Below are positions 4,298-33,831 of a stretch of DNA of 43,626 nucleotides, one piece after another; the first letter of the stretch is position 1, and each line of letters opens with the position of its first letter. Below the pieces are notes generated by a model. The model was not told the origin of the DNA and did not search any database. It saw only the letters and a program-made list of their open reading frames with translations. A program made the translations under genes and the position numbers. Location of the stretch: positions 1 through 43,626 of IMG/VR virus record IMGVR_UViG_3300050133_000045; one strand, written 5' to 3'. The DNA comes from a virus.

Positions 4298-5022
4298 ATC
4301 GCCTGCAAACTTTCGCCCAAAAATTTATTGATAAGATATTGCTGACCTTTACCGGTCACTTTTGTTGTTTTGCTGATTGTTGTGAAACCGCTCGAATGAT
4401 TTATAATGATTTCTTTTATTTCAAAAAGTTTCAATTCCATTGCTCTTTGCGTCGGGGCGTTATGATCTGTGCCAAAGCGTGAAATAAGATAACCGTTTGA
4501 CCGCAACCACTCGAATAAACGCTTTTCCCCGATTTCAACGCCGTTTTGCCGAATGATTTTTGCGAGTTCTCCGATTAAAATTGATGTTTTGGAAGTAGAC
4601 ACCGAATCAGCAAATAAAACTTTGGGCTTGTCCTGCTCGATTATGCTTGAAAGATGGTGAATTTTTTGGTCGGCCATTTGTAGAGCTCTTGCCATTAATG
4701 CCTCAGGACTGTTCCACTGTTTTTCAAGGTCGATAAAAAATTTACGGGCGATACTTCCCTTTTCGGATTTTTGAAGCATTGCCAATTCCTTTGCCATGTC
4801 AACGGTAATTTCGTAATCCTGCGCGTCGTGTGATGCTCCGGCAGATGTTAGGATTTTTGTACTAAGTTCTCGGTAATCCTCGTCTGCCATAAATCCATAA
4901 TCCTTGTATTTGTCAAACCATTTTGTGAATTGATCGTATGGCCTTTCAAGGTATTCCCACAATTCGCGAGCCGACGCAGTTGGCCTTTCGTTGTCATAAT
5001 TTACTTTGATTAAACTTTCCAT
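4294..5022 (-). CDS. phage antirepressor (AntA/ANT-type N-terminal domain plus KilA-C-type C-terminal domain)
   Basis: 242 aa. The N-terminus ...ASARELWEYLE...FTKWF... and the C-terminus ...LIGELAKIIRQNGVEIGEKRLFEWLRSNGYL... match the antirepressor family pattern as I recall it. Confidence 0.8.
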   Translation of the reverse strand: MESLIKVNYDNERPTASARELWEYLERPYDQFTKWFDKYKDYGFMADEDYRELSTKILTSAGASHDAQDYEITVDMAKELAMLQKSEKGSIARKFFIDLEKQWNSPEALMARALQMADQKIHHLSSIIEQDKPKVLFADSVSTSKTSILIGELAKIIRQNGVEIGEKRLFEWLRSNGYLISRFGTDHNAPTQRAMELKLFEIKEIIINHSSGFTTISKTTKVTGKGQQYLINKFLGESLQAM

Positions 5023-5153: not shown

Positions 5154-5390
5154 ATGGGCGAAGAATTATTTAATGTAGCAGAAATTTATGAAAGTTCCGA
5201 TTATGCCGAAATTAATGAATACCTAAAATCAGGGTGGGTTCTCATAGCATCAAATCAAGCCACGGACTCCGAAAGTAGCTGTACCTTATATACGGTAGGT
5301 TGGAAAACCACTTTTGAAAACATGGAATCTGAAATCAAGCACCCAAAATATCAAGCAAAAACCGGGTGGGAAGACATGCCACGGCTTTAG
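5154..5390 (+). CDS. hypothetical protein, 78 aa, antisense-embedded in the early-left operon
   Basis: Strong RBS AAAGGAGGTGA. Its own promoter-like TTGTCT(5101)-17-TAATAT(5124) lies upstream. Confidence 0.6.
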   Translation: MGEELFNVAEIYESSDYAEINEYLKSGWVLIASNQATDSESSCTLYTVGWKTTFENMESEIKHPKYQAKTGWEDMPRL

Positions 5391-5557
5391 TCCACTCTTC
5401 CTAAAGAAAACAGAATCTCGCTACTGTTTGGCTGGGGAGTAATCCCTATGCAAATCCAACCGCCATTTAAAATTAAATTTGAAGCTTCGTTTGCATCTTT
5501 TGTTTCACGCACTTCCTTTACGAGAGGGAGTGCGTTGTTTTGTAACTTTGCATTCAT
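5387..5557 (-). CDS. hypothetical protein, 56 aa (below the ORF-track cutoff)
   Basis: ATG at 5557 follows an AGGAAAGGAGG RBS. Translation: MNAKLQNNALPLVKEVRETKDANEASNLILNGGWICIGITPQPNSSEILFSLGRVD. It shares a D..E....L..GW..I....SS..L...G pattern with the convergent 78-aa ORF. Confidence 0.45.
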   Translation of the reverse strand: MNAKLQNNALPLVKEVRETKDANEASNLILNGGWICIGITPQPNSSEILFSLGRVD

Positions 5558-7421: not shown

Positions 7422-8438
7422 ATGCGAAAGCAAATAAAGCGGGAGAATGGGACAGGCTCTGTATATAAGCGTTCTGACCTGCATAACCGCCCGTGGATAG
7501 CTGTAACGCCGGAAAGGGATAATGTACCGGCTCAAATTATAGGCCACTATGCAACCGCGCAGGAGGCTAAGGACGCACTTGAAGATTACCGCCGCAATCC
7601 CACAACGAAATTAAATATCACTTTAAAAGAATTGTATGAGGAATGGAAAACAATAGCTTATAGAAATATCTCAAAACAGACACAAGATAACTATAATGCG
7701 TGTTGGCAAAAACTCACGACATTATATGATAATAAGTTTAGGGAGTTGAGAACCGGACAGATGCAAAAAATTATTGACCTATACTCTCACATGTCAAGCA
7801 GCACTCTCCAAAAGACAAAATCTTTGTTGACACAACTTTTTGACTATGCCTCTGAAAATGATATTGTAAATAAAAATTACGCTTCATTTATAACCCTGCC
7901 AAAAACCATAAAAATAAAAAAAGACTGCTTCACCGAATTGGAATTATCCAAAATCGAGAAAGCAGTCGTTCCTTATGCGGATGTTATATTAATGATGTGC
8001 TATACAGGTTTTAGGGTGAGCGAATTTTTGGAACTTACACCGTTCAACTACAGCCGAGAGAATAACGCCCTCACAGGTGGCAAAAAGACCGAGGCGGGAA
8101 AGAATAGGGTTGTGCCCGTTCATCCCAAAATAGAACGGATTCTAATGGGCTGGCTGGCACGTGGAGGGCAAACAATAGTATGCGATGAGAACGGAAAAGA
8201 AATGTCTGCCAATCATTTTAGATTGAAATGTTATTATCCGGCTTTGGCCTTAATCGGAGTGAGAAAATTGACCCCTCATGCAACACGTCACACTTTCGCA
8301 ACCAGACTTTCAGCAGGCGGGGCAAGGATGGAAGATATACAAGCACTCGCGGGGCATGAAAACTATGACGAAACCGCAAATACTTATATTCATCAAAACA
8401 TTGACACACTAAGAGCAGCTATTTTAAAATTATCTTAA
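7422..8438 (+). CDS. int: tyrosine recombinase (phage integrase) with an AP2-like N-terminal arm-binding domain
   Basis: 338 aa. Catalytic region: ...TGFRVSE...HATRHTFATRL...LAGHENYDETANTYIH (R..H-x-x-R..Y). N-terminus GSVYKRSD...WIAV...GHYATAQEAKDAL resembles the integrase AP2-type domain. Confidence 0.9.
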   Translation: MRKQIKRENGTGSVYKRSDLHNRPWIAVTPERDNVPAQIIGHYATAQEAKDALEDYRRNPTTKLNITLKELYEEWKTIAYRNISKQTQDNYNACWQKLTTLYDNKFRELRTGQMQKIIDLYSHMSSSTLQKTKSLLTQLFDYASENDIVNKNYASFITLPKTIKIKKDCFTELELSKIEKAVVPYADVILMMCYTGFRVSEFLELTPFNYSRENNALTGGKKTEAGKNRVVPVHPKIERILMGWLARGGQTIVCDENGKEMSANHFRLKCYYPALALIGVRKLTPHATRHTFATRLSAGGARMEDIQALAGHENYDETANTYIHQNIDTLRAAILKLS

Positions 8439-24868: not shown

Positions 24869-27059
24869 TCTGAGAACCTCCTTTAAGCATTTCTTCAAGT
24901 ATTTCGGGGTGTTGCTGTAAATGTTGCAATTCCTCCGGCTTAAGGTGAACATGTGCATTGCTAAGAATATCATTGAGTTCCTGTGCAATCTGTGGGTCTA
25001 TCTGCTGCATCTGCGGTTGTCCCTGCGGAGGTTGAGGGTTAGTAACATTCACAGGGTCGGTAACTATGCCGCTTGTGGGAGCTCCTCCTTGCAATTGCGC
25101 CCATGGCACGTTCTGGCTGTCTGCCGCAGGCGGTGTCTGCAACTGTAAACCGACTTTGGCAGCCTCTTGAACTTTGCCTTCTGGCGGCAAGTCCTTGAAC
25201 GCCATTGTAACTTTCGGAATACCAACAGGCATATTCTTGAAGTAGCTTTCAATATAGTCCTTGATTTCCCTACGTGTCGGCAAGTTCATGAGATCAATCC
25301 ACGCCTCAACCAGTTTGTAATTCTCCAAATTGATAGGTGTTTGCATCAACTGCTGAAGCATCTGGACTGTGAACGCTTTAGATTTTGTGAGACTGTCACT
25401 TGCCGTGACATAAGCGTCAACACGTGGGAAATAGGTTTCGATTTGCGGGTTTTTTTCATCCCCTACGTTTTTCTTATTTGCAAGGTTGTCTGAACTGTAA
25501 TGAAATATGATAGGCCCGGTGTTGGGGTCAAGGTTTTTGGGCATCGGTGGAATTGGCTGACCCGCTTGTTTAGCTTCGTTTACTTTCATCTGGTAATCCT
25601 GAGAGAATTTTTGTTTCAATCCCCCATCGGTGGCATTGATGAATATTAGACGGTTATCGTCGTAAAATTCAAGTGCTGACCAATCAACCAACTCGTAAAG
25701 TCTTTCAAAACCCGATATGCGGTCTGCTTTTTTAATATCCTTACGGCTGTCAGCCCTCTCATTGAGTTGGGCTATGCCCGAAGCGGTTACTACTCTGTTT
25801 GGTTCAACGCCCATTGAAGTATCAAAGTTTCCAATTGTCTTTTCAATTTGACTTTGCAGGAATGTGATTGAACCTTCACGGCTTGCGACTGCGTTCAGAC
25901 CTCCAACACGCTTAATCCCACCCGATCTGTTCTGCTTGGCGTGAATGATTGCGCCGGGGGCGTTGTTGAGTGTTTCTCCATCTGCAAGCGCGCCCTCTTC
26001 GACTATAACCATGTCGTTTGAGGTGTAAGCCGCATTCACAAGGCCATACGCCATTTCTCTGTCTGCTGCATCTGTGAGATCAATTATGCTTTCGAGTTCG
26101 GACTTGTCCCAAAAATTATTCTCGTCAAGGATTTTCCCGTATTTCACGAATGGGAACAGTTTACATTGAACGTGGGTCTTGTCCCAATATCGGGGAATAA
26201 ATCTGATTTCCTGAGAATTTATAAGAATTGAACACGCAATATCTCCGTTATCATCTTTATACCAAAATTCTGTAATCTGCACCGTGTCGTCGCGAAAATC
26301 TTGAACGTGACTATTGTAAATTCGGGTGTCGGAATAATTGTAATCTCCGCCAAAATCATCAATCATCATTCCGAGTTTTTTGAGATCATCGGAATAAACA
26401 CGGGCGGCTAATCTTTTATGTAACCGATAAACGTAGAACACATATTCAGCGTCTGAAAGGTCATGAGCCGCAGGATCGGGGAAAATGTTTGAGGGGTCGA
26501 CATCTTTTATTACAATATCGCCCTGTTTCCCATCGGGAGAAACAATATACCAATCCCAGTACACTTTCCAAAACGCATCTCCGAGTTTATTTAATCGGCG
26601 CTCGTTCTGCGTGTTCTTATTTTCAATTTTGTTACGTTCAAGAATATATTTAACTACATATTCTCTCTGTTTTGCGCGGTAACTGTCAAGGTCATCATCC
26701 CTCCCGTTGAATTCAAAGTCCGGCACATCGGGTATAATCATAGCCTCAACGTGCATGAAAGGATCTTGAACACAAGCGGGGATGAATGGTATATCATTCT
26801 TTTTGTTTGATTCCGCAATTGATAACATTGTGTCGTGTTTGCCGTTGTAATAATTATCATATTTTTTCCACTTCGCCACCCACGGCAGACGCTCCATCCG
26901 CGCATAATCGTAAAGATATAAAGCAGTTGCCTCACGATTTTCGGAGGTAAAGAAGTTATAAAGTACTGATTTGTCAATGTTTACGCCCTGTTTAACAGCG
27001 GCGGTTACACGCTTTGCAATCTTTACGATTTTATTTTGCTTTTTAGGCTCTGCCATCAA
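24861..27059 (-). CDS. portal protein
   Basis: 732-aa ORF immediately downstream of terL, with overlapping stop and start. The call rests on position and size. Confidence 0.7.
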   Translation of the reverse strand: MMAEPKKQNKIVKIAKRVTAAVKQGVNIDKSVLYNFFTSENREATALYLYDYARMERLPWVAKWKKYDNYYNGKHDTMLSIAESNKKNDIPFIPACVQDPFMHVEAMIIPDVPDFEFNGRDDDLDSYRAKQREYVVKYILERNKIENKNTQNERRLNKLGDAFWKVYWDWYIVSPDGKQGDIVIKDVDPSNIFPDPAAHDLSDAEYVFYVYRLHKRLAARVYSDDLKKLGMMIDDFGGDYNYSDTRIYNSHVQDFRDDTVQITEFWYKDDNGDIACSILINSQEIRFIPRYWDKTHVQCKLFPFVKYGKILDENNFWDKSELESIIDLTDAADREMAYGLVNAAYTSNDMVIVEEGALADGETLNNAPGAIIHAKQNRSGGIKRVGGLNAVASREGSITFLQSQIEKTIGNFDTSMGVEPNRVVTASGIAQLNERADSRKDIKKADRISGFERLYELVDWSALEFYDDNRLIFINATDGGLKQKFSQDYQMKVNEAKQAGQPIPPMPKNLDPNTGPIIFHYSSDNLANKKNVGDEKNPQIETYFPRVDAYVTASDSLTKSKAFTVQMLQQLMQTPINLENYKLVEAWIDLMNLPTRREIKDYIESYFKNMPVGIPKVTMAFKDLPPEGKVQEAAKVGLQLQTPPAADSQNVPWAQLQGGAPTSGIVTDPVNVTNPQPPQGQPQMQQIDPQIAQELNDILSNAHVHLKPEELQHLQQHPEILEEMLKGGSQNG

Positions 27060-28579
27060 ATCACCACTTCCTCTTTAGGCCTTAACCTGTCGATTAATTT
27101 ACCTGTCTGATATATGGGGTCTACCTTGACCGTGAAGGACTGCTGATTGCGTATGTAGTAAGTTATACCCATCGACATTATGCAGTCATCATGCTCGTTG
27201 TCTGCGGCTTCTGGACGGCCCTTTTCATTTCGGATAAAAGTAAGCATTTCATTTAAGGTGTCAAGGTCGTTAAACTGATTTATGTTGTCGCGGACTTCCT
27301 CAACGAGAATTGCGATTATCTGAGGCCGAGTTTTCTTGTTTGTCTGAAACCCGTATGACTTCATGGGTTTATGGGTGTAGTTGTCCTCGGTTTCTCGCGT
27401 ATAAAGATTTGGATATTCAAGGCGTTCCAGTTCTTTTTGCGGATGTGTGGAGAAGTTTGTTTCCAGCCCTATCAAGGCTTTATTAAAATACATCCCTAAA
27501 CAATAAGTCTGTTTAGCGTACAAATCCTCGTCGAACTGCTGCCTCAACGCAACAACTTGATTGCCCGTGGTATTGTCTATAACCTGGTTGACAAAGAAGT
27601 CAGAACCCTCGCCCGAAGTATCGCCGCCAAGAACATACGGATAACCTTTTTTAACATCCTCATAAATCTTGACGCAGCCTGTCCGGTTTTCTACAAACTG
27701 TATAGAACTGTTAATTATGCGTTCCCGCACGTCTAACTCGTATTCAAAGTAACCTTGAAGTAAAGGCTTTTTGATTTGAAGAATACGCTCACTGATTTTC
27801 TGCTTATCAAAGATTGACGAACCATAAACGCCCCAATTCCCGAGGCAGTAGACATCGTAATAATAAGGGTCGGTATCTTTAAAGGCTTCAAGTGTTAATT
27901 TATCCTCGTCAGATAAAAATTTATTATCGTGATAAGTCGAACGGCAAATAGTGCAATACGCCTTGACAGCCCTGCCCTCGATCATTGCTTCCGAGTAAAG
28001 ATAGGTATTAGTTTTATCTCCGTTTGATTTATCGTAGAATTTCTTCTTCAGCCAATGCGTTATATTAACAGGATTGAAAGAAACAACAATTTGCTTGCTG
28101 CTTCTGCCGCCTCTAAGACGGACATCCAACTGGTCAAAATCGTATTCGCTGATCTGATTTGCTTCCTCTACCCATACATCTGTTAATTCACCGTTCGGAA
28201 ATGTTGTAGACTTTAAATTTTCAACATCATCAAGCCCTCGGAATATAATCTGATTGCCATTTTTCAAACAGGTAATTACATGGTCGCCCTCGTTGATTTT
28301 AAAGAAAGATTTTGATTGCCAACTGTTCATAATCTGCTTAAAAAGGTTAAAAGTTGTGGTCGTGTTATCTTTTGCCACCTGACGAACTACCATCAAATTC
28401 ATAGGTTTTTCGTTCATAATGCGCAATATGTAACGCTGAACTATAAAATGTGACTTCCCCGACGAGGCTCCCCCAAACAGTACCAAATACCTACTCTTAT
28501 TTTCCAACAACGGTTTATAAATATTGTTGAAGTTATTACTCTTAATAACTATGTTTGGAGCTTGAGCGGCTTGCATCAT
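27056..28579 (-). CDS. terL: terminase large subunit (PBSX/XtmB-like)
   Basis: 507 aa. Walker A: LVLFGGASSGKSHF. A C-terminal nuclease-like acidic motif is present (...GLETN..., ...NEHDDCIMS...). Confidence 0.9.
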   Translation of the reverse strand: MMQAAQAPNIVIKSNNFNNIYKPLLENKSRYLVLFGGASSGKSHFIVQRYILRIMNEKPMNLMVVRQVAKDNTTTTFNLFKQIMNSWQSKSFFKINEGDHVITCLKNGNQIIFRGLDDVENLKSTTFPNGELTDVWVEEANQISEYDFDQLDVRLRGGRSSKQIVVSFNPVNITHWLKKKFYDKSNGDKTNTYLYSEAMIEGRAVKAYCTICRSTYHDNKFLSDEDKLTLEAFKDTDPYYYDVYCLGNWGVYGSSIFDKQKISERILQIKKPLLQGYFEYELDVRERIINSSIQFVENRTGCVKIYEDVKKGYPYVLGGDTSGEGSDFFVNQVIDNTTGNQVVALRQQFDEDLYAKQTYCLGMYFNKALIGLETNFSTHPQKELERLEYPNLYTRETEDNYTHKPMKSYGFQTNKKTRPQIIAILVEEVRDNINQFNDLDTLNEMLTFIRNEKGRPEAADNEHDDCIMSMGITYYIRNQQSFTVKVDPIYQTGKLIDRLRPKEEVVI

Positions 28580-28680
28580 TTCACATCCTCTACCCCTAAG
28601 GGTTGGCAGTTTGCTCTAAGGCGAAAGATCTCTGCCAAACTTGCCTAAATTAGCGTGGTATGCCTCACGCGGATTTACAA

Positions 28681-28755
28681 TGGCTGAGAAGATAGGACTT
28701 GAACCTATAACCCCCAGAGTAACAATCTGGAGCTCTACCGTTGCGCTACTTCTCA
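28681..28755 (-). tRNA. tRNA-Asn (anticodon GTT), CCA encoded
   Basis: Hand-folded cloverleaf: TGAGAAG/CTTCTCA acceptor, D arm GCGC-AACGGTA-GAGC (one mismatch), anticodon arm CCAGA-TTGTTAC-TCTGG. Variable GGGTT, T arm ATAGG-TTCAAGT-CCTAT, discriminator G, CCA. Confidence 0.8.
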
Positions 28756-28787
28756 AAATAAAAAGGGTACAGCCGAAGCCATACCCC
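28756..28787 (-). terminator. hairpin plus T-tract (terminator or processing element) abutting the tRNA 5' end
   Basis: The minus strand has GGGTATGGC-TTCG-GCTGTACCC, a 9-bp stem with a UUCG loop. It is followed by TTTTTATTT. Confidence 0.6.
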
Positions 28788-28864
28788 ACTTACCGCATAT
28801 AGCGGTTTGATTGTGGAGGCTCCGTGTTCGGGAGCAGGCCACTTGAATATTAAATTGTGTTGCA

Positions 28865-29104
28865 TCATTTTTTTGTTTTTATTGATCTTCTTCTCAAATA
28901 TCCATGAAAGAATAGTTTGCAAGGGATTTTATGATTCGTTCCAAAATCATAAATAAACCCGTTGGATATCCATAAAAAGTGCGGAATTTTAGTCCACAGC
29001 AAATGGCGCTTTTCAATTTTGACGTTAGGATTTTTAATTTTAGCTTTAATGGCTTCAAACAGACAATTTGAATAAAAGTAATCACTCAGCACTTCTTCTG
29101 CCAT
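28865..29104 (-). CDS. hypothetical protein, 79 aa
   Basis: ORF with an AAGGGTAAAA RBS, located between the two tRNA-type genes. Confidence 0.5.
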   Translation of the reverse strand: MAEEVLSDYFYSNCLFEAIKAKIKNPNVKIEKRHLLWTKIPHFLWISNGFIYDFGTNHKIPCKLFFHGYLRRRSIKTKK

Positions 29105-29132
29105 ATTTATTTTACCCTTATCTATAAAATAA

Positions 29133-29246
29133 ACATGTGGGCAAGGATCGAACTTGCATATAGGAACACCACTATCCGCGACGAGTCGAACGTCTTTTCG
29201 GTGTGATTCCTCACCACTCCGGCGCTACCAATTACGCCACCACATG
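29133..29246 (-). ncRNA. 114-nt tRNA-like RNA with a non-canonical 63-nt anticodon region
   Basis: Acceptor CATGTGG/CCACATG, U8, D arm GCGT-AATTGGTA-GCGC, T arm GCAAG-TTCGATC-CTTGC, discriminator U, no CCA. The segment between the D and T arms is about 40 nt too long for a tRNA. Confidence 0.55.
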
Positions 29247-29263
29247 CGTATTTACTTGACTTG

Positions 29264-29458
29264 TTACCACTTAGAATTTATACACTCATTTTTAAGCCAT
29301 TCAATAACGTCAAACTCTGATAAATTATTGAACATTTCTTTAAATTCTCGGCACTCTTTCCTGTTATGACTAGGGTATTTGATTAGCATAAGCGTATCTT
29401 GTGCATCACCGAGTGAACCAAAATAATGTTCATAATTTGTCTCTCCTGGTGTTTTCAT
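29264..29458 (-). CDS. hypothetical protein, 64 aa
   Basis: RBS CAAGGAGGAAAA. The start overlaps the upstream stop (ATGA). Confidence 0.55.
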   Translation of the reverse strand: MKTPGETNYEHYFGSLGDAQDTLMLIKYPSHNRKECREFKEMFNNLSEFDVIEWLKNECINSKW

Positions 29459-29748
29459 TTTTCCTCCTTGAATATGTCGGGGTTGTCCTTGATGAATGCG
29501 TAAATAGCAGATTCCAACCTCGCTGTTCCATCTTCATCTATTTCCAAATGGTGCACAAATGAAAGCTGATGTATAACCTCATGGATAAAAGTGGACTCTT
29601 GAAGCTGATTTGAAATCGTTGAGTCGATTAAAATACTCTGACGGTTTCCGGAACTTGAACCTAACGCATCGTTATCCCTACAAAGAGTATCTGACGATGA
29701 CACATCATATATCAGACCGCCTATTTTTACTTTATCGGGTATGTTCAT
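29455..29748 (-). CDS. HExxH-motif protein, 97 aa (putative small metallopeptidase-like)
   Basis: ATG at 29748 follows a GGAGAA RBS. The sequence contains ...QESTFIHEVIHQLSFVHHLE... (HEVIH). Confidence 0.5.
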   Translation of the reverse strand: MNIPDKVKIGGLIYDVSSSDTLCRDNDALGSSSGNRQSILIDSTISNQLQESTFIHEVIHQLSFVHHLEIDEDGTARLESAIYAFIKDNPDIFKEEK

Positions 29749-30376: not shown

Positions 30377-30877
30377 CTATGCATCATCTTTGCTTGGCTC
30401 TTGCATATCATCAGAGGCATCTATAGTAATTGTGCCTTGTACTTGCATGTCTATCTTATCGGTGAGGAGACCATAACGTCTGGCGAGTAACTCCGCTGCT
30501 TTGACCTTATCACGAGCTGGTACACGCTTGGTGACGGTCTTTGCAGTGCTCTTGCCCTCACCTATACCCACCACAATAACAGCGTCCTCGTCCTCTGTAT
30601 CCCTCACGACGCTTGTTAAATAGCGCATTACCTCGTCTGCATCGGCTATTTTGCTATCACTGATAGATTTGAGACGGCTCTCTATATACGCATGGAGATA
30701 AATGTCTTTGAGCATTTTATTTGCTATAACTCCAGCTGTATGCGCGCTATATCCGCATTTAATCGCCGCTTGTGTAGCGTTGAGGTCTGGCTCTGCTAAA
30801 TATGTATCTGCAAACATCTGTTGCTTAACTGTGAGGTTATTATCGTTACGATGTAACTGCCCTGCTATCCTTGCCAT
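30377..30877 (-). CDS. terS: terminase small subunit (Terminase_2-like)
   Basis: 166 aa. LTVKQQMFADTYLAEPDLNATQAAIKCGYSAHTAGVIANKML matches the terS HTH signature. RBS GAGGAG. Confidence 0.85.
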   Translation of the reverse strand: MARIAGQLHRNDNNLTVKQQMFADTYLAEPDLNATQAAIKCGYSAHTAGVIANKMLKDIYLHAYIESRLKSISDSKIADADEVMRYLTSVVRDTEDEDAVIVVGIGEGKSTAKTVTKRVPARDKVKAAELLARRYGLLTDKIDMQVQGTITIDASDDMQEPSKDDA

Positions 30878-33617: not shown

Positions 33618-33657
33618 TAAATCACACCGAAAAACGAATTGAAAGAAGGATTTAAAA

Positions 33658-33831
33658 ATGGTTAAGTCAGAAAGAATTGCCATGAACACAATATGGGGGT
33701 ATCTCCGTGACCATCAAGACACGCCCGAAAAGAAAGCCTTGTTTGAACTTGTATCAAGAACCATCAAATCGGATAGAGAACGGCGCAGAAAGCGCGAAAG
33801 CGTAAAAAGTAAAACAAAGCCTCCGCAATAG
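33658..33831 (+). CDS. 57-aa basic protein (below the ORF-track cutoff)
   Basis: RBS GAAAGAAGGA. Translation: MVKSERIAMNTIWGYLRDHQDTPEKKALFELVSRTIKSDRERRRKRESVKSKTKPPQ. Confidence 0.4.
   Translation: MVKSERIAMNTIWGYLRDHQDTPEKKALFELVSRTIKSDRERRRKRESVKSKTKPPQ

What the first reader, a model, noticed from the sequence alone, without database searches (positions are those of the whole stretch)
29133..29246. 114-nt tRNA-like RNA with canonical acceptor, D and T arms but an anticodon region that fits no tRNA model
On the minus strand I can hand-fold most of a cloverleaf:
- 7-bp acceptor stem CATGTGG/CCACATG.
- U8.
- D arm GCGT-AATTGGTA-GCGC.
- T arm GCAAG-TTCGATC-CTTGC.
- Discriminator U, no encoded CCA.

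Between position 26 and the T stem there are 63 nt where a class I tRNA has about 22 and a class II tRNA at most about 40. That segment contains:
- A GTGA-GGAA-TCAC hairpin with a GNRA loop.
- A GACG-TTCGACT-CGTC hairpin with a 7-nt loop, which would read CGA but has C at position 37.
- The 7-mer AGTGGTG repeated directly at both edges.

The flanks GGAGT...GTTCC could pair as an anticodon stem. No register gives a 7-nt loop with U33. The insert is far too short for a group I intron, and I see no hammerhead core.

Possible readings:
- An intron- or insert-bearing tRNA.
- A tRNA mimic, for example a decoy for host anticodon nucleases or tRNA-modifying enzymes.
- A tRNA gene disrupted by a small insertion with a 7-bp target duplication.
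Basis: partly seen in the sequence, partly recalled or inferred. Interest (0 to 1): 0.7.

Follow-up and report, generated by a model that had tools for sequence, protein, structure and literature searches.

The report
Phage tRNA look-alike with swapped body
The 114-base sequence is a real tRNA-shaped gene in a temperate phage that cannot decode a codon, and related phages carry the same tRNA ends around quite different structured middles, so it belongs to an undescribed small family of tRNA look-alike RNAs whose function is still unknown.

Summary
Window 29246..29133 (minus strand) has a 7-bp acceptor stem, U8, and D and T arms with canonical loops. Between them lie 63 nt that fit no tRNA model. 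Rfam finds nothing here. ARAGORN calls it only with the intron option, and its answers are inconsistent.

At the same place in 10 related phage contigs, the leader, acceptor stem, D-stem start and last three T-stem pairs recur. The bodies are unalignable and range from 68 to 148 nt. Their D-like and T-like stems keep pairing through compensatory changes, and one acceptor pair also covaries. Interior shuffles give both hairpins in under 1% of cases.

No relative has an ordinary tRNA at this site. None of the bodies has a usable anticodon loop. An encoded G-1 pairs with C73 (U73 in the window), which is the tRNA-His signature. Removing 41 nt from the window copy gives a cloverleaf that ARAGORN calls tRNA-His(GUG), but that stem is disfavoured in the full RNA.

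Best reading, inferred rather than shown: a non-decoding, tRNA-derived RNA cut out by RNase P and RNase Z, like plant t-elements or mascRNA. A decoy, a scaffold and a pseudogene remain open. New variant of a known kind; interest 0.6.

The parts
29247..29257 (-). Leader AAGTAAATACG, ending in G-1 (29247), which pairs with position 73
   Evidence: Identical in L007, L014, L015, L056, L057, L058; AGTAAATACG in L009; AAGTAAATTCG in L082/L083. In several loci AAG TAA is the Lys codon plus stop codon of the upstream ORF.
29240..29246 (-). Acceptor stem, 5' strand CATGTGG
   Evidence: pair probability 0.98-1.0. Pair 1:72 is U:A instead of C:G in L082/L083.
29222..29239 (-). U8, G9 and the D arm GCGT-AATTGGTA-GCGC
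   Evidence: The D stem covaries across variants: GCG/CGC, GUG/CAC, ACA/UGU. The 5' part of the D arm aligns with variants B, B', E and G.
29216..29220 (-). GGAGT, which would be the 5' strand of an anticodon stem
   Evidence: Pairs with GTTCC only through two G-U pairs. Probability about 0 in the ensemble, and forcing it costs +5 kcal/mol.
29175..29215 (-). 41-nt extra segment (element positions 32-72). It holds the GGAA-capped hairpin (29214-29203) and the T-loop-like hairpin GACG-TTCGACT-CGTC (29194-29180).
   Evidence: Deleting it gives a 75-nt cloverleaf that ARAGORN calls tRNA-His(gtg). The first hairpin resembles the GUGUGA-GAAA-UCACAC arm of variant G. AAAAGACG...CGGATAG is shared with variant B.
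29195..29208 (-). AATCACACCGAAAA, a 14-mer also present on the + strand at 33620-33633
   Evidence: 4 of 500 shuffles reach a 14-nt match.
29163..29174 (-). TAGTGGT + GTTCC. Counted back from the T stem these are positions 32-43, with GTG (29172-29170) in the anticodon register.
   Evidence: Sequence; ARAGORN on the 41-nt deletion.
29141..29162 (-). Variable loop TATAT and T arm GCAAG-TTCGATC-CTTGC
   Evidence: In the T-like stems of the family, 25 of 27 cells beyond the shared GCA/UGC are standard pairs, and pair 4 occurs as AU, GC and UA.
29133..29140 (-). Acceptor stem 3' strand CCACATG and discriminator T (C in all relatives)
29122..29132 (-). U-rich trailer TTATTTTATAG; no CCA encoded
   Evidence: Conserved as CTTATTTTATA in the relatives, and repeated after further small modules in L014, L082 and L083.
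28865..29104 (-). 79-aa ORF starting 28 nt after the element. In L007, L015 and L057 a drum RNA occupies this position.
   Evidence: No Pfam or PHROG match.
28756..28861 (-). Conserved non-coding block ending in an intrinsic terminator (28787-28764)
   Evidence: one hairpin changes with compensation in L015.
28681..28755 (-). Ordinary tRNA-Asn(GUU)

Best explanation
The element is a tRNA-derived, tRNA-shaped RNA gene that no longer decodes. It belongs to a small, undescribed family found between the packaging genes of temperate phages, probably phages of gut Clostridia.

The family keeps four things: a tRNA-His-type acceptor end (encoded G-1 paired with position 73, seven further pairs, no CCA, U-rich trailer), the U8-G9 linker, a D-like hairpin, and a hairpin that stacks on the 3' acceptor strand. 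The anticodon and variable region is replaced by a lineage-specific structured body. In the window that body is two to three extra hairpins.

Proposed mechanism. The RNA is transcribed with its neighbours. Its acceptor/T-type minihelix is recognised by host RNase P at the 5' side and RNase Z at the 3' side, and CCA is then added. Excision does two things:
- It creates the 3' end of the upstream message and the 5' end of the downstream RNA (the ORF79 mRNA here, drum RNA in relatives).
- It releases a stable tRNA look-alike of about 115 nt.

What is shown: the sequence features, the family, the covariation, and the lack of any decoding loop.

What is inferred: transcription, processing, CCA addition, and any role of the released RNA.
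For: **tRNA top half is intact in the window copy.**

**Same ends, different bodies.** Found in L007, L009-11, L014/L081, L015, L056, L057, L058, L082 and L083.

**The stems are under selection as RNA:**
- D-like stems occur as GCG/CGC, GUG/CAC and ACA/UGU.
- T-like pair 4 occurs as AU, GC and UA; pair 5 as GC, UA and CG.
- 25 of 27 T-stem cells beyond the shared GCA/UGC pair, against 0.53 when strands from different variants are cross-matched.
- Acceptor pair 1:72 changes from C:G to U:A in L082/L083.
- Both hairpins appear in at most 0.7% of interior shuffles.

**No variant has a conserved anticodon loop.** Only the window copy is tRNA-like enough for ARAGORN to call it.

**The conserved parts match the minimal substrate** of RNase P, RNase Z and the CCA-adding enzyme, namely acceptor stem plus T-type hairpin (established knowledge; see t-elements in PMC1920247 and mascRNA in PMC8457004).

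**Position fits a processing role.** The element is co-directional with its neighbours. A ribosome-binding site and ORF, or a drum RNA, starts 14-30 nt after position 73 in every locus.

**The window copy is kept intact.** It is 100% identical in two other assemblies, one with a different terminase type.
Against: - There are no expression or end-mapping data.
- T-like stems vary from 5 to 8 bp, and T-like loops from 7 to 16 nt. This fits poorly with the 12-bp ruler used by RNase P and RNase Z.
- Only the window copy has the G18G19 and UUCGA elbow.
- A processing signal needs pairing, not sequence. Yet the acceptor stem is almost invariant in sequence. This hints at a sequence-specific reader, or at recombination that homogenises the ends.
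- Six of the ten relatives were retrieved with exact-end patterns, so the constancy of the ends is partly built in. The four retrieved independently of the ends are L007 and L009 through TerL, and L082 and L083 through the downstream block.
- Single-sequence folding energies are not significantly low.
- An intrinsic terminator lies between the element and terL, so the transcription unit is unclear.
Confidence: 0.45

Rival explanations
1. The released RNA itself is the point. It would be a trans-acting tRNA mimic in which the constant tRNA-His-type end supplies stability and a handle (HisRS, CCA enzyme, EF-Tu or a defence protein). The exchangeable body would be the effector: a decoy, sponge or aptamer, possibly charged with histidine.
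For: - G-1:C73 is the main HisRS identity element (PMC4357726, PMC3064791). It is kept in all relatives, including L082/L083 where the next pair has changed.
- The acceptor stem is conserved in sequence, not just in pairing.
- Bodies are well-formed hairpin sets rather than junk.
- Variants C1 and C2 share a 32-nt identical core between diverged flanks.
- The window body carries a 14-nt copy of the start of an early-gene leader.
- Bodies differ between near-identical phages: TerL is 97% identical between the window and L007. This pattern is expected under diversifying selection.
Against: - The window copy has U73, a weaker HisRS determinant.
- No complementary target was found for any body. 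The only long match is same-sense, and it is significant only at about 0.01 before multiple testing.
- No partner protein is consistently linked. Homologues of the small HExxH protein occur without the element.
- Nothing shows charging or binding.
Confidence: 0.22
2. It is a decaying phage tRNA gene, originally tRNA-His, sitting in a recombination hot spot. The ends look conserved because they serve as crossover linkers between modules, and the bodies are scars without function.
For: - The phages are strongly mosaic here. Gene-boundary linkers recur: AAG TAA at ORF ends, DNPDIFKEE* plus AAGGAGG, and repeated CTTATTTTATA.
- Assemblies break at the neighbouring joint.
- The window copy has a GUG remnant in the anticodon register and a 7-nt direct repeat.
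- Variant H (L082) no longer folds as a cloverleaf.
Against: - Compensatory changes keep the D-like and T-like stems paired in unalignable bodies.
- Whole hairpins are replaced by other hairpins at the same place, as in E versus G.
- The window copy is identical in three assemblies and two phage backgrounds.
Confidence: 0.15
3. It is chiefly a transcription terminator or module-junction element: a stop codon, then a long closing stem, then a U-rich tract, with a tRNA-like insert in the loop.
For: - The closing stem is followed by CTTATTTTATA in all loci.
- The same trailer follows small plain hairpins in L014, L082 and L083.
- A bodyless look-alike, GTAAATCCGCGTGAGGCATACCACGCTAATTTAGG, lies after tRNA-Asn.
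Against: - A 60-130-nt branched loop is a poor terminator.
- The look-alike match (13 of 16) is expected by chance about 0.3 times per window (my estimate).
- This reading does not explain the conserved D-like and T-like hairpins or the canonical D and T loops of the window copy.
Confidence: 0.1
4. It is a working tRNA-His whose 41-nt insert is removed after transcription by an unknown splicing route.
For: Removing positions 32-72 gives a 75-nt cloverleaf with G-1, anticodon GUG, G37, a 5-nt variable loop and canonical D and T arms. ARAGORN calls it tRNA-His.
Against: - The spliced loop would have A33 instead of U33, and the stem two G-U pairs.
- The stem is not populated in the precursor.
- No group I, ribozyme or other intron signature was found, and by inspection no bulge-helix-bulge motif.
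- No RNA ligase or endonuclease gene was found among the window proteins scanned.
- No relative has a spliceable tRNA.
Confidence: 0.05

Closest known systems
Plant mitochondrial t-elements and the mascRNA module of MALAT1 (tRNA-like processing signals; PMC1920247, PMC8457004)
   Same: A non-decoding tRNA-like fold embedded in a longer transcript. The acceptor stem plus T-type hairpin is the conserved part. These modules are thought or shown to be cut by RNase P and RNase Z, which defines the ends of neighbouring RNAs and releases a small tRNA look-alike.
   Different: Those are eukaryotic or organellar. Here the element is in a phage, carries a tRNA-His-type G-1, and has a body exchanged between relatives. 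Processing was not tested here.
Bacterial and phage tRNA-His
   Same: Encoded G-1 opposite position 73, giving an 8-bp acceptor stem. The window copy has GUG and G37 in register when counted back from the T stem, and canonical D and T arms.
   Different: There is no continuous anticodon arm. The window copy has A33 and U73. Relatives have no GUG loop at all. The Rfam tRNA model and default ARAGORN do not recognise it.
C4 antisense RNA of phages P1/P7 and CI RNA of satellite P4 (Rfam C4 family; from my own knowledge, and listed as RNase P substrates in PMC4919922)
   Same: Small phage RNAs with a tRNA-like end, matured by RNase P, whose variable loops set specificity between related phages.
   Different: No Rfam match. 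No antisense target was found in the window. The hosts and the genome position differ.
Bacterial Y RNA-like YrlA (PMC4201824)
   Same: A non-coding RNA with a tRNA-mimicking module (acceptor-like stem, T and D arms), also found in phages.
   Different: In YrlA the RNA ends lie at the Ro-binding stem, opposite the tRNA-like module. Here the ends are the acceptor stem. There is no Rfam hit, and no Ro/Rsr gene was found among the proteins scanned.
Viral tRNA-like structures that accept histidine or valine (plant RNA viruses; PMC7749636)
   Same: Mimicry of the tRNA top half without decoding. Charging depends on acceptor-end identity elements.
   Different: Those are 3' ends of RNA genomes built with pseudoknots. 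This is a discrete gene in a DNA phage with a true acceptor helix.
Engineered tRNA scaffolds for RNA expression (from my own knowledge; see also aptamer-tagged tRNAs, PMC7590224)
   Same: The anticodon region is replaced by a foreign structured RNA, while the acceptor, D and T arms supply processing and stability.
   Different: Those are man-made. A natural equivalent has not, to my knowledge, been described.

Membership tests
Canonical tRNA (Rfam RF00005) | 7-bp acceptor stem, U8, D arm with G18G19, T arm with UUCRA loop | tested here: met
   Sequence; pair probabilities 0.94-1.0.
Canonical tRNA (Rfam RF00005) | 5-bp anticodon stem with a 7-nt loop, U33 and a purine at 37, at the right distance from the D and T arms | tested here: not met
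   63 nt lie between position 26 and the T stem. No register works, and GGAGU/GUUCC is not populated.
Canonical tRNA (Rfam RF00005) | Reaches the family model's score | tested here: not met
   No tRNA hit at this site at gathering threshold, or at E<=10 on a 500-nt slice. ARAGORN with default settings is silent.
Intron-bearing tRNA (bacterial group I type) | Group I intron core in the anticodon loop | tested here: not met
   No Rfam intron or ribozyme hit. The extra segment is 41 nt.
Intron-bearing tRNA (archaeal bulge-helix-bulge type) | Two 3-nt bulges separated by a 4-bp helix at the exon-intron borders | tested here: inconclusive
   None seen by hand at the 31/32 and 72/73 borders. No dedicated tool was run. 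The surroundings point to a bacterial host.
tRNA-His | Encoded G-1 pairing with C73 | tested here: met
   G-1:C73 in all relatives; G-1:U73 wobble in the window copy.
tRNA-His | Anticodon GUG in a normal loop | tested here: not met
   GUG is in register only after removing 41 nt, and even then position 33 is A. It is absent in the relatives.
tRNA-His | Charged by HisRS | not testable with these tools
   Needs an aminoacylation assay.
t-element / mascRNA-like processing module | Non-decoding fold with an acceptor stem stacked on a T-type hairpin inside a longer transcript | tested here: met
   The element is co-directional with its neighbours.
t-element / mascRNA-like processing module | Cleaved by RNase P and RNase Z; CCA added | not testable with these tools
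   Needs end mapping or in vitro cleavage.
C4 / CI antisense RNA | Match to the family model, and loops complementary to a target in the same genome | tested here: not met
   No Rfam hit. The longest match in the window is same-sense, and no antisense match exceeds 11 nt.
tmRNA, YrlA, known self-cleaving ribozymes | Match to the family model | tested here: not met
   ARAGORN tmRNA search and Rfam at E<=10 gave nothing at the site. The same holds for the variants in L007, L015, L056 and L058.

The most novel reading that the evidence does not exclude
These phages maintain a pool of natural 'tRNA-scaffold' RNAs. A constant tRNA-His-type acceptor end is processed, CCA-tailed and perhaps histidylated by host enzymes. 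It carries interchangeable structured bodies that are swapped between phages by recombination at the constant ends. Each body would act as a decoy or sponge against a different host or rival-phage factor.
Probability: 0.2. Interest if true: 0.85.

Novelty: new variant of a known kind. Interest (0 to 1): 0.6.

Why it matters
Phage tRNA genes are usually read as codon-usage helpers or, more recently, as replacements for tRNAs cut by host defences. This is a tRNA-derived gene that has plainly given up decoding, yet it keeps its tRNA ends and its arm pairings under selection while the middle is exchanged between close relatives.

If the ends are a processing and stability handle, this would be a bacterial-virus counterpart of t-elements and mascRNA, and a natural version of the tRNA scaffold used in biotechnology.

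If the G-1:C73 end is charged, it would be a DNA-phage RNA that accepts histidine without an anticodon.

Either way, standard annotation (tRNA finders, Rfam) misses it. It sits in a dense, unannotated island of structured RNAs next to the still-unexplained drum RNA, and so offers a way into that island.

Tried and rejected
**Searches that found nothing**
- Megablast and blastn of the region, and of the 41-nt-deleted sequence, against 50,697 phage records gave only tRNA-Asn matches or nothing.
- Patterns built on the window body found nothing in IMG/VR.
- A drum-based pattern found only loci already held.

**Neighbour proteins as a route to more loci**
- ORF79 homologues lie in other contexts without the element.
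- Homologues of the small HExxH protein (phrog_1233) lie between portal and scaffold genes without the element, so it is not a partner.

**Readings rejected**
- Protein-coding reading. The ATG inside CATGTGG opens frames of 6 to 70 codons that differ between variants and lack a ribosome-binding site.
- Simple excision of the insert plus one 7-nt repeat. It leaves a 13-nt arm.
- Unique intron solution. ARAGORN gives more than 30 anticodons over the deletion series.
- Antisense target search. There is no convincing complementary site. The one long match is same-sense. Cross-matches of the other bodies are at chance level.
- Sigma-70 promoter at the leader. None is conserved.
- Leader-trailer pairing beyond the acceptor stem. 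It is possible (5 A-U pairs after a C-U mismatch), but it is broken without compensation in L058, L082 and L083.

**Window proteins.** No reverse transcriptase, RNA ligase or synthetase-like gene was found among 30 window proteins scanned.

Full report
**1. What is there**

Read on the minus strand, window 29246..29133 is:

CAUGUGG U G GCGU-AAUUGGUA-GCGC C GGAGU [41 nt] UAGUGGU GUUCC UAUAU GCAAG-UUCGAUC-CUUGC CCACAUG U.

In the thermodynamic ensemble the acceptor, D and T stems have pair probabilities of 0.94-1.0, and the inner GACG/CGUC hairpin has 0.88. The flanking GGAGU/GUUCC stem is not populated, and forcing it costs about 5 kcal/mol. The total folding energy is not unusual (z = -1.36).

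Standard detectors miss the element:
- ARAGORN in default mode finds only the neighbouring tRNA-Asn(GUU) at 28755..28681.
- Rfam finds only that tRNA at gathering threshold.
- Rfam finds nothing at the site even at E<=10 on a 500-nt slice: no tRNA, tmRNA, ribozyme or intron.

**2. Genome context**

The window is a temperate tailed phage. It encodes:
- a tyrosine integrase (7422-8438);
- a Cro/CI-type repressor and an antirepressor;
- a DnaB-type helicase and replication initiators;
- a small terminase (30377-30877);
- a large terminase (27056-28579);
- a portal protein.

The element lies between the two terminase genes and points the same way as its neighbours. It is followed by a 79-aa ORF, a conserved non-coding block ending in an intrinsic terminator (28787-28764), and tRNA-Asn.

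The named relatives of the terminase and of a small neighbouring protein come from Clostridia. I take the host to be of that kind, without proof.

**3. The intron and insertion readings**

- With the intron option, ARAGORN proposes tRNA-Ser(CGA) with a 26-nt intron at 31/32, an A.G mismatch and an unstructured 21-nt variable arm. With slightly different flanks it proposes tRNA-Arg(UCG) with a 24-nt intron.
- I deleted every segment of 15-59 nt within the middle region, giving 1215 constructs. ARAGORN called 227 of them, with more than 30 different anticodons. So the strong outer arms carry almost any middle over its threshold.
- One solution stands apart. Counting back from the T stem, with a 5-nt variable loop and a 3' stem GUUCC, the anticodon register reads G34 U35 G36 G37. 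Removing 41 nt (positions 32-72) gives a 75-nt class-I cloverleaf that ARAGORN calls tRNA-His(GUG).
- The base before position 1 is G, and it faces position 73. This is the tRNA-His hallmark and the main identity element for HisRS (PMC4357726, PMC3064791). In bacteria G-1 is encoded in the genome (PMC3061083).

I take this as reasonable evidence that the window copy descends, at least in its 3' half and its ends, from a tRNA-His gene.

It is not evidence of splicing:
- The loop would have A33.
- The stem would have two G-U pairs and is not formed in the precursor.
- No intron family matches.
- No relative has anything spliceable.

The 7-nt direct repeat is real. However, its copies are offset by 4 nt in the tRNA register, and removing the insert plus one copy leaves only 13 nt.

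**4. Relatives**

A contig with a 97% identical terminase (L007) has the same flanks and the same first 13 and last 10 bases of the element, but an unalignable 95-nt interior.

I then collected further loci in four ways:
- patterns built on the ends, which found L014, L015, L056, L057 and L058;
- protein-based retrieval, which found L007 and L009-L011;
- exact look-ups, which found L079 and L080 with the window variant, and L081;
- a scan based on the downstream conserved block, which found L082 and L083.

This gives ten kinds of body between essentially the same ends: A (the window), B, B', C1/C2, D, E, F, G and H, from 68 to 148 nt.

Shared features:
- leader (A)AGTAAAT(A/T)CG, ending in G-1;
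- (C/T)ATGTGG, then TG;
- a D-like hairpin;
- a final hairpin whose base is GCA/UGC and which abuts CCACAT(G/A);
- C73 (T in the window);
- trailer TTAYTTTA.

D, E, F and G fold as plain cloverleaves. B, B' and A have extra hairpins. H is the least regular. None has a conserved anticodon loop, and none matches an Rfam family. Even with lowered thresholds, ARAGORN calls only A and, spuriously, B'.

**5. Is the fold selected?**

Yes, as far as so few sequences can show.

| Stem | Evidence |
|---|---|
| D-like | Occurs as GCG/CGC, GUG/CAC and ACA/UGU, plus a shifted CAGGU/ACCUG |
| T-like | Beyond the shared GCA/UGC, 25 of 27 cells are standard pairs |
| T-like, control | 0.53 paired when the 5' strand of one variant is matched to the 3' strand of another |
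| T-like pair 4 | AU, GC, UA |
| T-like pair 5 | GC, UA, CG |
| Acceptor pair 1:72 | U:A in L082/L083 in place of C:G, with G-1:C73 kept |

With the ends fixed and the interior shuffled, a T-like hairpin flush with the acceptor strand plus a D-like hairpin appear together in at most 0.7% of minimum-energy folds. They appear together in 6 of 8 real variants.

E and G are clear homologues in which the whole middle hairpin has been replaced by a different hairpin. A's first extra hairpin resembles G's middle hairpin. A's AAAAGACG...CGGAUAG is shared with B, so A is itself a mosaic.

Caveats:
- Six relatives were found with exact-end patterns, so the constancy of the ends is partly built in. Of the loci found independently of the ends, L007 and L009 have the standard ends. 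L082 and L083 have the compensated variant.
- The sample is small and comes from few studies.

**6. How it probably works**

The conserved parts are the acceptor helix, a hairpin stacked on its 3' strand, no encoded CCA and a U-rich trailer. This is the minimal substrate of RNase P, RNase Z and the CCA-adding enzyme (established knowledge).

Non-decoding tRNA-like folds used in just this way are known as t-elements in plant mitochondria (PMC1920247) and as the mascRNA module of MALAT1 (PMC8457004).

In every locus, a ribosome-binding site and ORF, or a drum RNA (RF02958), starts 14-30 nt after position 73. Excision would therefore give the downstream RNA a defined 5' end.

I therefore favour a tRNA-derived processing and stability module that also releases a stable tRNA look-alike (confidence 0.45).

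Points against:
- The T-like stems vary from 5 to 8 bp and the loops from 7 to 16 nt. This fits the 12-bp ruler of these enzymes poorly.
- The acceptor stem is conserved in sequence, which a processing signal does not need.
- A terminator lies between the element and terL.
- Nothing about expression is known.

**7. Rivals**

(a) *The released RNA is the effector.* The constant tRNA-His-type end would be a handle and the exchangeable bodies decoys or sponges, perhaps histidylated. This fits the sequence-level conservation of G-1:C73 and the acceptor stem, the well-formed bodies, the 32-nt identical core shared by C1 and C2, and different bodies in near-identical phages. However, the window copy has U73, and no target or partner was found (0.22).

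(b) *A decaying tRNA-His gene in a recombination hot spot.* These phages do reuse short linkers at module joints, and assemblies break next door. But compensatory changes, hairpin-for-hairpin replacement, and the 100% identity of A in three assemblies and two phage backgrounds argue for constraint (0.15).

(c) *A terminator or junction element with a tRNA-like loop* (0.10).

(d) *A spliced tRNA-His* (0.05).

**8. Comparison with what is known**

The element fails the membership tests for tRNA, intron-bearing tRNA, tmRNA, YrlA, C4/CI RNA and the known ribozymes. It shares with tRNA-His the G-1:N73 end and a GUG remnant. It works most like t-elements and mascRNA, if the inferred processing is real.

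I found no description of a phage RNA family with constant tRNA ends and exchangeable bodies in the literature searches. That is absence of evidence in an incomplete library.

I rate it a new variant of a known kind (tRNA-like non-coding RNAs), with interest 0.6. It is real, missed by standard tools, structurally constrained and oddly modular. But it is rare in the collections searched, its function is unproven, and the ordinary explanation (a tRNA remnant reused as a processing site) is quite possible.

Noticed in passing
L007 4398-4502; L015 8089-8193; L057 4414-4518: A drum RNA (Rfam RF02958, function unknown) starts 14 nt after the element in three relatives. The window and L014 have a 79-aa ORF at that position instead.
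   Followed up: partly
window 28756-28861 (-), terminator 28764-28787: A non-coding block of about 110 nt, conserved at 92-97% in otherwise unrelated phages. It has two hairpins and an intrinsic terminator and lies just upstream of tRNA-Asn. One hairpin changes with full compensation in L015 (CUCC/GGAG to UCUC/GAGA), and the second is swapped in L014. No Rfam match.
   Followed up: partly
window 33620-33633 (+) and 29195-29208 (-): The 14-mer AATCACACCGAAAA of the element's body recurs, in the same RNA sense, at the start of the leader of the + strand ORF 33658-33831. That ORF sits in a divergent early regulatory region with repeated TTGCGT..ATGCAA-type operators. Four of 500 shuffles reach a match this long. 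A similar AATCACACCACAAAACGA precedes another small ORF in L015 (about 4320-4340).
   Followed up: partly
L014 1053-1110; L082 about 3785-3735 (-); L083 5052-5110: A small extra hairpin module sits between two copies of CTTATTTTATA. Its stem sequences differ in all three loci but always pair.
   Followed up: no
L057 about 4640-4840; L058 about 2160-1960 (-); L083 about 5320-5510; L082 about 3730-3650 (-): A further conserved non-coding stretch of 200-300 nt (…CTGCCTGTCGTCTGGCGACTAACAAATTGACGACTTG…) lies between the element and the terminator block. With it the region becomes a 0.5-1 kb island of structured RNAs without ORFs.
   Followed up: no
window about 28640-28679 (-); L007 4893-4935; L079 about 2690-2730: After tRNA-Asn (or after an ORF in relatives) lies a bodyless look-alike of the element's ends: (AA)GTAAATCCGCGTGAGGCATACCACGCTAATTTAGG. 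It has a similar leader, a 5-bp hairpin and a U-rich trailer. The 13/16 identity is not significant on its own.
   Followed up: partly
window 29455-29748 (-); L007 3136-3447; L015 7347-7637; L057 3680-3982: A small protein of about 97-103 aa with an HExxH motif (MNIPDKVKIG…DNPDIFKE, phrog_1233) lies upstream of the element in four loci. Its last codons plus AAGGAGG recur as a linker at other gene ends. Its homologues elsewhere lack the element.
   Followed up: yes
L079 2499-2912; L084, L085, L086 starts: Assemblies from the samples that hold the window variant break at the terminator/tRNA-Asn joint. L079 joins the same element to a different terminase type. This points to population-level mosaicism at this joint.
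   Followed up: partly
L056 1655-1860: A second structured non-coding stretch begins with GCATGTGGGGGCAGCG, which resembles the element's 5' end, and ends in a strong terminator. There is also a weak sub-threshold abiF RNA hit at 1591-1627 (E = 0.03).
   Followed up: no
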